Shown piece by piece: positions 38,309 through 39,480 of a stretch of DNA of 64,000 bases. The stretch lies in assembly GCF_009914755.1 (NCBI RefSeq), contig NC_060944.1; one strand, given 5' to 3'. This DNA comes from the human T2T-CHM13v2.0 reference genome, Homo sapiens. Within the stretch, counting starts at the first letter, position 1. Every line of letters starts with the position of its first letter. The notes under the pieces were generated by a model that was given only the letters and a program-made list of their open reading frames with translations, had not been told where the DNA came from and ran no database searches. Both the position numbers and the translations under genes were made by a program.

Positions 38309-38573
38309 GGCCGGGCACGGTGGCTCATGCCTGTAATCCCAACACTATGGGAGAGATCCCCACCCGAGGTGGATGGATCATTTGAGGTCAGGAGTTGGAG
38401 ACCAGCCTAGCCAACGTGGTGGAAACCCCATCTCTACTAAAAAATCCAATAATTAGCCGGGTATGGTGGTGCGTGCCTTTAGTCCCAACTACTTGGGAGG
38501 CTGAGGCAGGAGAATCACTTGCACCCGGAAGGCAGAGGTTGCAGTGAGCCGAGGTCGTGCCACTGCACTCCAG
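38309..38573 (+). mobile_element. AluS host, broken after 'cactgcactccag'
   Basis: Alu text stops abruptly at 38573. Confidence 0.9.
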
Positions 38574-38693
38574 TTTATCTCCTCCCAAGTACTTACATGT
38601 GTCCTGTGACACAAATGATTGAAGATATGAGATGGAAAGGCCAAAAAAAAAAAAAAAAGAGGAAGCCAGGGCTGGGCATGGTGGCTTATACCT
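38574..38693 (+). repeat. Direct copy of 40167-40277
   Basis: tttatctcctcccaagtactta.atgtgtcctgtgacacaaatgattgaag.tatgagatggaaagg...ggaagccag.gctgg.catggtggctta.acct in both places. Confidence 0.95.
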
Positions 38694-39345
38694 CCCAAGT
38701 AGCTGGGACTATAGGCGCCCGCCACCATGCCTGGATAATTCTTTGCATTTTTAGTAGAGATGGGGTTTCACCGTGTTAGCCAGGATGGTCTCGATCTCCT
38801 GACCTCATGATCCGCCCGCCTTGGCCTCCCAAAGTGCTGGGATTACAGTCGTGAGCCACCACACCCAGCCGGCACAGTGCTTTTAAGCATATGGTTGATC
38901 CATATGGTGGCAGTGTCATTACTTAATTTTTTTAACAGTTGAATAATATTCCATTGTGTGGATATATAACATTTAAAAAATCAGTTTATAAATTGATGGA
39001 CATTTGGGTTGTTTCCACTTTTTGGCTATTGTAAATAATGGTGCAATAAACATTTATGTACAAATTTTCCTGTAGATGTATGTTTTCAATTCACTTGGGT
39101 TTATACCTAGGAGTGAAATTGTTATGTCGTATAATAACTCTATGTTTGAGTTTTGAGGAGCTGCCAAACTGTTTTTCTCAACCTGGATAATCTCGACTGG
39201 CCAATTTTCATGTTCACTGATTCTTCTGCCAGGTCAAATTTGCTGTTGAGCCTCTCCAGTCAATATTTCATTTCAATTATTGAACTTCCTCACTCATGAA
39301 TTTTTTGAATTATTTCTATAATCCTGTCTCTATTTAATGAAACAT
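38691..39345 (-). repeat. Inverted copy of 1453-2107 (L1M + L1MB + Alu 5' part)
   Basis: About 14 mismatches in ~475 non-Alu bases (~97%); includes the locus-specific L1/L1 and L1/Alu junctions. Confidence 0.97.
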
Positions 39346-39480
39346 GGCGTGAACCCGGAAGGTGGAGGTTGCAGTGAGCTGAGATCGTACCACTGCACAC
39401 CAGCCTGGGTGACAGAGCAAGACTCTGTCTCAAAATAAATAAATAAATAAATAAAAGAAAAAAGAAAAGAAGAAAAGAAA
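39344..39480 (+). mobile_element. Alu right-arm 3' part with tail
   Basis: 'atggcgtgaacccggaagg...gactctgtctc(aaat)n'. Confidence 0.92.

What the first reader, a model, noticed from the sequence alone, without database searches (positions are those of the whole stretch)
38309..39480. Four-part chimeric insertion inside an Alu, built from a template 1.6 kb downstream and an inverted template 37 kb upstream
Seen in the sequence: the host Alu (38309-38573) breaks off. A direct copy of 40167-40277 follows (38574-38693). Through a 'cct' microhomology between two different Alus it switches to an inverted copy of 1453-2107 (38691-39345; ~97% identical outside the Alu part). That copy carries the donor locus's own L1/L1 and L1/Alu junctions and its private 'aaagaatta' Alu variant. 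Through an 'at' microhomology it then returns to an Alu right arm (39344-39480). This last piece starts with 'atggcgtgaaccc', as the donor Alu does at 2121, just 13 bp past the inversion point. It also carries the non-consensus 'cccggaagg' seen in the host Alu at ~38524. A degenerate TSD (agaaacaaagtcttt / agaaacgaggtattc) brackets the whole unit. Inference: a fossil of serial replication template switching (FoSTeS/MMBIR) among three Alus, or twin-primed retrotransposition of a read-through transcript. Using a donor 37 kb away suggests the two sites were in physical contact in the germline.
Basis: partly seen in the sequence, partly recalled or inferred. Interest (0 to 1): 0.8.

Follow-up and report, generated by a model that had tools for sequence, protein, structure and literature searches.

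The report
Patchwork DNA insertion inside an Alu
An old Alu repeat on human chromosome 20 was split millions of years ago by about 780 bases copied piecewise from two nearby places on the same chromosome, a clean but not unusual fossil of error-prone DNA repair by template switching.

Summary
38690-39345 is a gap-free inverted copy of 1453-2108: 36 of 656 bases differ, and 14 of 474 (3.0%) outside the Alu part. Genome-wide, nothing else matches above 80%. 38574-38693 copies 40167-40277, with 5 mismatches and one A-run gap. It came from the ANAPC13P1 locus, not the parent gene.

The last piece is itself a mosaic, so the unit has five parts. Its first 9-14 bases are AluY-type like donor 2121-2134. 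The rest fits the host Alu better and repeats about 46-51 nt of it. Junction microhomologies are 0, 4 (ACCT), 2 (AT) and 5 (ACCCG) nt.

All pieces show the same divergence from their sources, which fits one event, roughly 7-24 Myr ago.

- **Best reading (0.6):** DNA-level iterative template switching (FoSTeS/MMBIR-like), with all templates in cis within 37 kb.
- **Canonical twin-primed retrotransposition:** not supported.
- **Reverse-transcriptase patch with twin-priming geometry:** still possible (0.2).
- **The claimed TSD:** weak.

This is a known kind of event. Interest is moderate to low.

The parts
38293..38307 (+). Putative left target-site duplication of the host Alu (AGAAACAAAGTCTTT)
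   Evidence: It matches 39476-39490 at 11 of 15 positions. Support is weak: 2.3% of random window 15-mers do as well, and 2 of 10 flanks of other Alus score 12.
38309..38573 (+). Part A: host Alu (older S/J type) from its first base to ...CTCCAG, where it breaks off
   Evidence: It is 75-80% identical to the other window Alus. In the alignment it stops where the others continue with CCTGGG.
38574..38693 (+). Part B: direct copy of 40167-40277. It holds 88 nt of ANAPC13P1 3'UTR-derived sequence and the first 24 nt of the Alu inserted there. The junction with A is blunt.
   Evidence: 5 mismatches in 111 bases plus a 9-nt A-run gap. The pseudogene locus is the only other genomic match. B is 82% identical to the parent gene on chr3 but about 95% to the pseudogene. 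That Alu is absent from the parent.
38690..38693 (.). Junction B/C: 4-nt microhomology ACCT, shared by 40274-40277 and the reverse complement of 2105-2108
   Evidence: Flank comparison at the junction.
38690..39345 (-). Part C: inverted copy of 1453-2108. It holds an antisense AluY-type left portion (38691-38871), then two different dispersed repeats (38872-39177 and 39178-39345).
   Evidence: 656 bp, gap-free, 36 mismatches. The next-best genomic match is 80% or lower and partial. The donor-private Alu/repeat junction is present.
39344..39357 (+). Part c': 9-14 nt of sense AluY-type sequence (ATGGCGTGAACCCG), identical to donor 2121-2134. It is joined to C by the 2-nt microhomology AT. Twelve donor bases (2109-2120) are skipped between it and C.
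   Evidence: Three-way display and crossover scan. It differs from the host at 4 of its first 9 bases.
39353..39475 (+). Part D: Alu right arm and A-rich tail, best read as the host Alu's own 3' part. It is joined to c' inside the shared ACCCG. Its first 46-51 nt repeat 38523-38573.
   Evidence: It shares the rare A of GGAAGG with the host. It has the S-type G in GGAGGTTGCAG, which 0 of 14 Y-type-start Alus carry. The crossover scan has its minimum at 9-14 nt. Raw distance alone does not single out the host.
38523..38573 (+). Host Alu segment that reappears at 39353-39403, a duplication flanking the insertion
   Evidence: 6 mismatches in 46 outside the microhomology. This is the same rate as C's Alu part against its donor, 22 of 182 (Fisher p = 0.81).
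39476..39490 (+). Putative right target-site duplication of the host Alu (AGAAACGAGGTATTC)
   Evidence: Support is weak.
1453..2134 (+). Donor locus for C (1453-2108, copied inverted) and c' (2121-2134, copied direct). A full AluY-type element (1926-2241) lies inside an older dispersed repeat.
40167..40277 (+). Donor locus for B, inside ANAPC13P1, spanning the 5' junction of the Alu at 40255-40575

Best explanation
One germline event, roughly 7-24 million years ago, interrupted an older Alu. It was resolved by iterative, microhomology-guided template switching of a DNA 3' end, of the FoSTeS/MMBIR type of replicative repair.

Read left to right on the top strand, the path is:
1. Synthesis left the host Alu at 38573.
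2. It landed 1.6 kb downstream with no microhomology and copied 111 nt (40167-40277).
3. It switched through ACCT to the opposite strand of a locus 37 kb upstream and copied 655 nt (2108 down to 1453).
4. It switched through AT back to the other strand of that same locus, 12 nt from where it had first landed, and copied 9-14 nt (2121-2134).
5. It returned through ACCCG, inside Alu/Alu homeology, to the host Alu about 46-51 nt behind its point of departure.

The result is about 780 bp of templated DNA flanked by a short duplication of the host Alu.

Shown: the five pieces, their sources, their orientations, the junctions and the equal divergence. Inferred: a single event, a DNA rather than RNA template, and that the last piece is the host's own 3' part.
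For: - The donors are unique in the genome and still intact, so this was copying, not cut-and-paste.
- Both donors lie in cis, 1.6 kb and 37 kb away. A retrotransposed RNA would have no reason to come from so near.
- Direct and inverted pieces are mixed. Junctions have 0, 4, 2 and 5 nt of microhomology.
- A very short templated piece (9-14 nt) sits next to long ones. Passages read in PMC5120786 describe the same pattern for iterative template switches: templated insertions from 6 bp to 13 kb with blunt or microhomology junctions.
- The c'/D junction is a chimeric Alu in register, as in Alu/Alu-mediated rearrangement (PMC6071635, passages).
- Ages agree. B's unique part has 2 mismatches in 68 and C's non-Alu part 14 in 474 (p = 1). 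The A/D overlap has 6 in 46 and C's Alu part 22 in 182 (p = 0.81).
- Changes in C's Alu part fall on both lineages, 13 on the donor and 8 on the copy (p = 0.38), as expected for an old duplication.
- There is no poly(A) at the inner junctions. None of the inner boundaries has a TSD-like match (7-8 of 15).
Against: - Nothing in the sequence tells a DNA template from an RNA template.
- C and c' lie 12 nt apart on one donor strand. That is the geometry of twin priming, and a purely serial path explains it only as coincidence or as local fork architecture.
- The A/B junction has no microhomology.
- The host-duplication reading of D rests on few characters: A at GGAAGG (3 of 55 other Alus), G at GGAGGTTGCAG (0 of 14 Y-type-start Alus), a shared CpG-type T, and a weak TSD.
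- By raw distance the host (6 of 46) ranks only 5th to 9th among 54 sampled Alus. D could therefore be a third Alu already at the site.
- The Alu sample is small.
- No outgroup genome was available, so a single event is not proven.
Confidence: 0.6

Rival explanations
1. A reverse-transcriptase patch with twin-priming geometry, without L1 endonuclease. In this reading a staggered break in the host Alu left two 3' ends. The right end annealed by Alu homeology to a plus-sense donor transcript and was extended 9-14 nt to 2121. The left end, after first copying B, annealed 12 nt further along at 2105-2108 and was extended to 1453. The two cDNA ends then joined through the self-complementary AT. This would be a class 2 templated-sequence insertion.
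For: - It explains the 12-nt spacing of C and c' on one donor strand, the inversion, the AT junction and the flanking duplication in one scheme.
- Twin priming is defined by two ends annealed to one RNA, with microhomology at both junctions (PMC2912911, passages).
- Templated patches at breaks have been argued to derive from RNA (PMC5110952, sections 5 and 9).
- The whole region lies in or just beyond the LINC00687 transcription unit (hub annotation).
Against: - It needs a plus-sense transcript across 1453-2134, and none is annotated. LINC00687 is minus-sense and ends at 11283.
- B needs a template of the opposite sense.
- Both donors being in cis within 37 kb is unexpected for free RNA.
- The same geometry works with a single-stranded DNA template.
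Confidence: 0.2
2. Canonical L1-mediated twin-primed retrotransposition of a read-through transcript from the donor locus (1453 to the donor Alu's A-tail), inserted into the host Alu.
For: - The inverted 5' segment is followed by a direct Alu right arm with an A-rich tail.
- A small deletion (12 nt) sits at the inversion point.
- Microhomologies are present at the 5' junction (4 nt) and the inversion junction (2 nt).
Against: - After the first 14 nt, the direct segment is no closer to the donor Alu than a random Alu is: 8 of 46, equal to the median of 54.
- It carries host-type states.
- Its tail is TAAA-rich and GAAAA-rich, while the donor's is (CAAAA)n.
- Part B between the target and the inverted segment is unexplained.
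- There is no T-rich L1 endonuclease site at the inner junction (sequence).
- None of the inner boundaries has a TSD-like match after the tail (7-8 of 15).
- The source lies 37 kb from the target in cis. By chance that is about 80 kb in 3.1 Gb.
- 5'-inverted Alu retrocopies are very rare: one example in the human/chimpanzee survey of PMC2912911 (passage).
Confidence: 0.04
3. Two or more separate events. For example, C and c' were patched into the host Alu first and B was added at the A/C junction later. Alternatively D is an independent Alu that already lay next to the host Alu, with later gene conversion creating the Y-type start.
For: - Raw distances cannot show that D is the host's own.
- The TSD is weak.
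- The confidence intervals on divergence are wide: B 1.5-10.2%, C 1.6-4.9%.
Against: - B and C have the same divergence from their sources.
- B would have had to land exactly on an existing junction.
- The start of D falls 12 nt from the end of C in donor coordinates. I estimate roughly a 9% chance of that for unrelated breakpoints within an Alu.
- The Y-type start combined with the S-type G is seen in 0 of 14 sampled Alus.
Confidence: 0.1
4. An assembly artefact that joined reads from the three loci.
For: None was found.
Against: The copies differ from their sources by 3-12%, with changes on both lineages. A chimeric assembly of the donors would be near-identical to them.
Confidence: 0.01

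Closest known systems
Complex templated insertions from iterative template switching (FoSTeS/MMBIR), as described for constitutional complex rearrangements (PMC5120786, passages read)
   Same: - Several templated pieces from different loci are joined in cis.
- Junctions are blunt or have 1-5 nt of microhomology.
- Very short and long templated pieces are mixed, in direct and inverted orientation.
- The donors are retained.
   Different: Here the whole event is under 1 kb. It lies inside one Alu, is old and sits in the reference sequence. There is no large copy-number change. All templates lie within 37 kb in cis.
Alu/Alu-mediated rearrangement (AAMR) with a chimeric Alu (PMC6071635, passages read)
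   Same: The c'/D junction joins two homeologous Alus in register inside a short perfect match (ACCCG). Three of the four junctions have at least one side in an Alu.
   Different: AAMR yields a simple deletion or duplication between two Alus. Here the chimeric Alu is only the last of four junctions. The B/C junction joins a sense left monomer to an antisense right monomer, out of register.
L1 twin priming / 5'-inverted retrocopies (PMC2912911, passages read)
   Same: An inverted piece and a direct piece come from one template strand. A few bases are lost at the inversion point, both junctions have microhomology, and a flanking duplication of the target is present.
   Different: - The direct piece is only 9-14 nt.
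- No poly(A) is derived from the template.
- There is no TTTT/AA site at the inner junction.
- The duplication is 46-51 nt.
- An extra templated piece (B) is present.
- The source lies in cis.
Class 2 templated sequence insertion polymorphisms (PMC5110952, abstract and sections 5, 8 and 9 read)
   Same: A patch templated from elsewhere fills a break, with no poly(A) and no L1 hallmarks, and with NHEJ-like or microhomology junctions.
   Different: - Class 2 patches are described as coming from distant regions and probably from RNA.
- Here there are three patches from two nearby cis loci.
- The target is duplicated rather than microdeleted.
- Nothing is known about whether this insertion is polymorphic.

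Membership tests
Iterative template switching (FoSTeS/MMBIR-type complex templated insertion) | Two or more templated segments from different loci joined in cis at one site | tested here: met
   B comes from 40167-40277, C from 1453-2108 and c' from 2121-2134. The sources are unique in the genome.
Iterative template switching (FoSTeS/MMBIR-type complex templated insertion) | Junctions are blunt or have short microhomology, with no long homology | tested here: met
   0 nt at A/B, ACCT at B/C, AT at C/c', and ACCCG within Alu homeology at c'/D.
Iterative template switching (FoSTeS/MMBIR-type complex templated insertion) | Donor loci are retained (copying, not excision) | tested here: met
   Both donors are intact and contiguous with their surroundings.
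Iterative template switching (FoSTeS/MMBIR-type complex templated insertion) | All junctions were formed in one event | tested here: inconclusive
   Divergences are equal within wide intervals. No outgroup genomes were available.
Iterative template switching (FoSTeS/MMBIR-type complex templated insertion) | Synthesis by a DNA polymerase on DNA templates during replication or repair | not testable with these tools
   The sequence alone cannot tell a DNA template from an RNA template. Donors in cis are only indirect support.
L1 twin-primed retrocopy | The direct 3' segment and its poly(A) derive from the same RNA as the inverted segment | tested here: not met
   Only the first 9-14 nt fit the donor. 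The rest differs from the donor at 8 of 46, the random-Alu median. It has host-type states. The tail patterns differ. The power of this test is moderate.
L1 twin-primed retrocopy | L1 endonuclease target (TTTT/AA on the bottom strand) at the priming site | tested here: not met
   The inner right junction lies in GTGAACCCGGAAGG, which is not T-rich on either strand. The definition is taken from PMC2912911.
L1 twin-primed retrocopy | Inversion junction with a small loss or gain of template bases, and microhomology | tested here: met
   Twelve donor bases (2109-2120) are skipped, and the microhomology is AT.
L1 twin-primed retrocopy | Target-site duplication flanking the whole insertion | tested here: inconclusive
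   A 46-51 nt repeat of the host Alu flanks B, C and c'. It is far longer than usual, and it is an inference that D is the host's own.
Alu/Alu-mediated rearrangement | Breakpoints in two Alus aligned in register, giving a chimeric Alu with microhomology | tested here: met
   This is met for the c'/D junction only. The B/C junction joins Alus out of register and in opposite orientation.
Class 2 templated sequence insertion | No TSD of L1 type, no poly(A) and no cryptic poly(A) signal, with NHEJ or microhomology junctions | tested here: met
   However, the target is duplicated rather than microdeleted.
Class 2 templated sequence insertion | The patch derives from reverse-transcribed RNA | not testable with these tools
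   No expression data were at hand.

The most novel reading that the evidence does not exclude
The two 3' ends of one staggered break in the host Alu were both primed on a single donor strand only 12 nt apart. That strand was an RNA made in cis, a nascent or read-through transcript of the locus. On this reading the composite is a germline fossil of RNA-templated double-strand-break repair with twin-priming geometry but without L1 endonuclease, anchored by Alu homeology.
Probability: 0.12. Interest if true: 0.6.

Novelty: new member of a known kind. Interest (0 to 1): 0.3.

Why it matters
This is a compact, fully resolved natural example of a multi-step templated insertion. Every template can be named to the base, and all templates lie in cis.

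It offers a datable test case. Ape and monkey orthologues can show whether such mosaics arise in one step. They can also recover the pre-event target, and so show whether the flanking duplication and the 9-14 nt micro-patch are real.

The 12-nt spacing of two pieces on one donor strand bears on whether these patches are made by one wandering 3' end or by two ends sharing a template, and on whether the template is DNA or RNA.

It has no evident functional consequence. It lies in an intron of a lncRNA, next to a processed pseudogene.

Tried and rejected
- **Better donor elsewhere:** whole-genome searches for the non-Alu part of C (two halves) and for B found none.
- **Paralogous empty site:** both flanks are unique. 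The only other match is the ANAPC13 parent, to the pseudogene's start.
- **B from the parent mRNA:** rejected. B is 82% identical to the parent but about 95% to the pseudogene, and it contains the start of an Alu that the parent lacks. The parent has that A-rich stretch internally.
- **Error-prone synthesis near the B/C junction:** mismatches are denser in the first 46 nt of C (10 of 46 against 12 of 136, p = 0.03). The alignment places most of them on the donor lineage, and the stretch is CpG-rich, so this gives no support. Over C's whole Alu part, one search counts 13 changes on the donor and 8 on the copy.
- **Raw-distance test that D is the host's own or the donor's:** uninformative. Host 6, donor 8, random Alus 4-14 with median 8.
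- **TSDs for the inner units:** none, 7-8 of 15.
- **Pfam scan of five open frames in C, to name the repeats:** no hits. Calling them L1 ORF2 and L1 ORF1-antisense is recall only.
- **Literature on this locus:** 17 papers mention LINC00687. The 10 listed, seen only as titles and abstract openings, concern association or expression studies. None of the 17 mentions ANAPC13P1.

Full report
**What is there.** The window is human chr20:11,842,001-11,906,000 (hub annotation; confirmed).
- Part A, the host Alu, runs from 38309 to 38573. It is 75-80% identical to other window Alus. It stops at ...CTCCAG, where the others continue with CCTGGG.
- Part B, 38574-38693, matches 40167-40277 in direct orientation. 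There are 5 mismatches in 111 aligned bases and one 9-nt gap in an A-run.
- Part C, 38690-39345, matches the reverse complement of 1453-2108 over 656 bp without a gap, with 36 mismatches. The Alu part has 22 of 182, nine of them CpG transitions. The rest has 14 of 474, which is 3.0%.

**Are the donors the true donors?** The window's own genome can be searched.
- For the 475-bp non-Alu part of C, the only strong hit besides itself is 1453-1927 at 97%. All 38 other scored hits are 74-80% and partial.
- The second half of C alone gives the same answer: 96% to the donor, then 82% or lower.
- B's unique part has one other hit, 40167-40252.
- B's source lies inside the processed pseudogene ANAPC13P1. 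B is 82% identical to the parent gene on chr3 and about 95% to the pseudogene.
- B includes the first 24 nt of an Alu (40255-40575) that the parent lacks. The parent runs straight across that point, and the pseudogene resumes matching it at 40792-41271. B was therefore copied from the pseudogene locus after that Alu had inserted.
- In the donor for C, a full AluY-type element (1926-2241) sits inside an older dispersed repeat. In 6 of 6 other genomic copies of that repeat, the sequence on both sides of the donor Alu is contiguous. The Alu/repeat junction is thus private to the donor, and C carries it.
- C also shares the donor's private G in AAAGAATTA, seen in 0 of 13 other window Alus.
- Naming the two non-Alu repeats in C as L1 rests on my recall. 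A Pfam scan of five open frames found nothing. The second one is a dispersed repeat with at least 170 candidate copies.

**The last piece is a mosaic.** Aligned with the host (38514-38573) and the donor Alu (2121-2180), the piece starting at 39344 behaves in two ways.
- It equals the donor for its first 14 bases (ATGGCGTGAACCCG) and differs from the host at 4 of the first 9.
- From base 10 onward (ACCCGGAAGG...) it equals the host, while it differs from the donor at bases 15, 16, 25 and 30.
- A crossover scan has its minimum, 6 mismatches in 60, for a switch anywhere in bases 9-14. All-donor gives 8 and all-host gives 10.

I sampled 55 other Alu right arms from 200 kb of chr19, the rest of the window and other loci.
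- Of the 14 with the Y-type start, position 25 is C in 12, T in 1, A in 1 and G in none.
- The piece has G there, as do the host and 34 of 39 S-type-start Alus (the four rows CT/G, TT/G, CT/A and TT/A).
- The A of GGAAGG, shared with the host, occurs in 3 of 55.

So the piece reads best as 9-14 nt copied from donor 2121-2134 (part c'), followed by the host Alu's own 3' part (part D). D repeats 38523-38573 at 39353-39403.

There is a caution. By raw distance over bases 15-60, the host (6 of 46) is only the 5th to 9th closest of 54 sampled Alus, whose range is 4-14 with median 8. The donor, at 8, sits at the median. Distance therefore argues against a donor origin for D but cannot single out the host. 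A third Alu already at the site is not excluded.

**Junctions.**
- A/B: no microhomology.
- B/C: ACCT, 4 nt, within 7 of 10 matching bases (and my reading).
- C/c': AT.
- c'/D: ACCCG, inside Alu/Alu homeology.
- In donor coordinates, C ends at 2108 and c' starts at 2121 on the other strand. Twelve bases are skipped.

**TSD.** The 15-mer before the host Alu matches 39476-39490 at 11 of 15. Of random window 15-mers, 1150 of 50000 (2.3%) do as well. However, 2 of 10 flanks of other Alus score 12, because the target region is A-rich. An earlier test, offset by one base, gave 12.6% for random window 15-mers and 3.3% for shuffles. The TSD is suggestive only. No inner boundary has a TSD-like match (7-8 of 15).

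**One event or several?**
- Divergence from source is alike for B's unique part (2 of 68) and C's non-Alu part (14 of 474; Fisher p = 1).
- It is also alike for the A/D overlap (6 of 46) and C's Alu part (22 of 182; p = 0.81).
- Polarised with other Alus, changes in C's Alu part fall on both lineages: 13 donor, 8 copy, 1 unclear (p = 0.38).
- This fits one old event, but the intervals are wide: 1.6-4.9% for C and 1.5-10.2% for B.
- With a recalled neutral rate of about 1.1e-9 per site per year, 3.0% between copies means about 13 Myr, with a range of roughly 7-22 Myr. The 7-24 Myr given elsewhere in this report is the same estimate with the rate taken more loosely.
- These divergences also rule out an assembly chimera.

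**Mechanism.**
- Best reading, 0.6: iterative template switching of a DNA 3' end, with the path given under Best explanation. The features match what passages of PMC5120786 give as the signature of FoSTeS/MMBIR: templated insertions from a few bp to kilobases, blunt or microhomology junctions, and iterative switches. The last junction is a chimeric Alu of the kind attributed to template switching or MMEJ in PMC6071635. The strongest indirect argument for a DNA-level, proximity-dependent process is that both donors lie in cis, 1.6 and 37 kb away.
- What this reading explains poorly is the 12-nt spacing of C and c' on one donor strand. That is the geometry of twin priming, in which two 3' ends anneal to one template (PMC2912911). 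A two-ended version accounts for it, for the self-complementary AT junction and for the flanking duplication. In that version the right end is anchored by Alu homeology and extended to 2121, while the left end is annealed at 2105-2108 and extended to 1453. It works with single-stranded DNA or RNA.
- An RNA version (0.2) would be a class 2 templated insertion (PMC5110952). It needs an unannotated plus-sense transcript, and an opposite-sense template for B.
- Canonical twin-primed retrotransposition of a read-through donor transcript (0.04) fails on four counts: D's character states, its tail (TAAA-rich and GAAAA-rich against the donor's CAAAA repeats), the lack of a T-rich nick site, and part B.

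**Comparison and verdict.** The composite works like a small FoSTeS/MMBIR-type complex insertion with an Alu/Alu chimeric junction. It meets the features of that class that could be tested. Two defining points could not be settled here: that there was a single event, and that the template was DNA. It is a new example of a known kind, not a new kind. A search for the locus names found no description of it: 17 papers mention LINC00687, of which I saw 10 as titles and abstract openings only, and none of the 17 mentions ANAPC13P1. Supplements of the cited papers were not opened.

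Noticed in passing
window 47220-47378 and 47715-47873: A 159-bp direct repeat at 90.6% identity, with copies 495 bp apart. It is the only other non-Alu duplicate of 100 bp or more and 88% or more in the window self-comparison.
   Followed up: no
window 39613-41271 (ANAPC13P1): The pseudogene matches the parent's first exon from about 39617 and its last exon and 3'UTR up to 41271. It is interrupted by an Alu at 40255-40575 that the parent lacks, flanked by a GGAAGCCAGA-type target duplication. A second, more diverged copy lies on chr1 (73%). The composite ends only about 135 bp upstream of the pseudogene.
   Followed up: partly
window ~38353-38363: The host Alu carries a roughly 10-nt insertion (AGATCCCCAC) in its left arm that none of the 13 other aligned window Alus has.
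   Followed up: no
window 1926-2241 and flanks: The donor AluY-type element is flanked by GCACAGTG and GCACTGTG. This is a near-perfect 8-nt target duplication that is also nearly its own reverse complement (read).
   Followed up: no
window ~1620 (donor), equivalent to ~39177 (copy): Two different dispersed repeats abut here. Other genomic copies of the first repeat end their match at this point, and the second repeat is not found within 1.5 kb of them. From recall, the two look like L1 ORF2 3' sequence in sense and L1 ORF1 sequence in antisense. Pfam gave no hit.
   Followed up: partly
window 38319-38500 against 38691-38860: The event created an inverted Alu pair inside the composite: 78% identical over 182 bp, with arms about 190 bp apart. 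Such a pair could form a hairpin.
   Followed up: no
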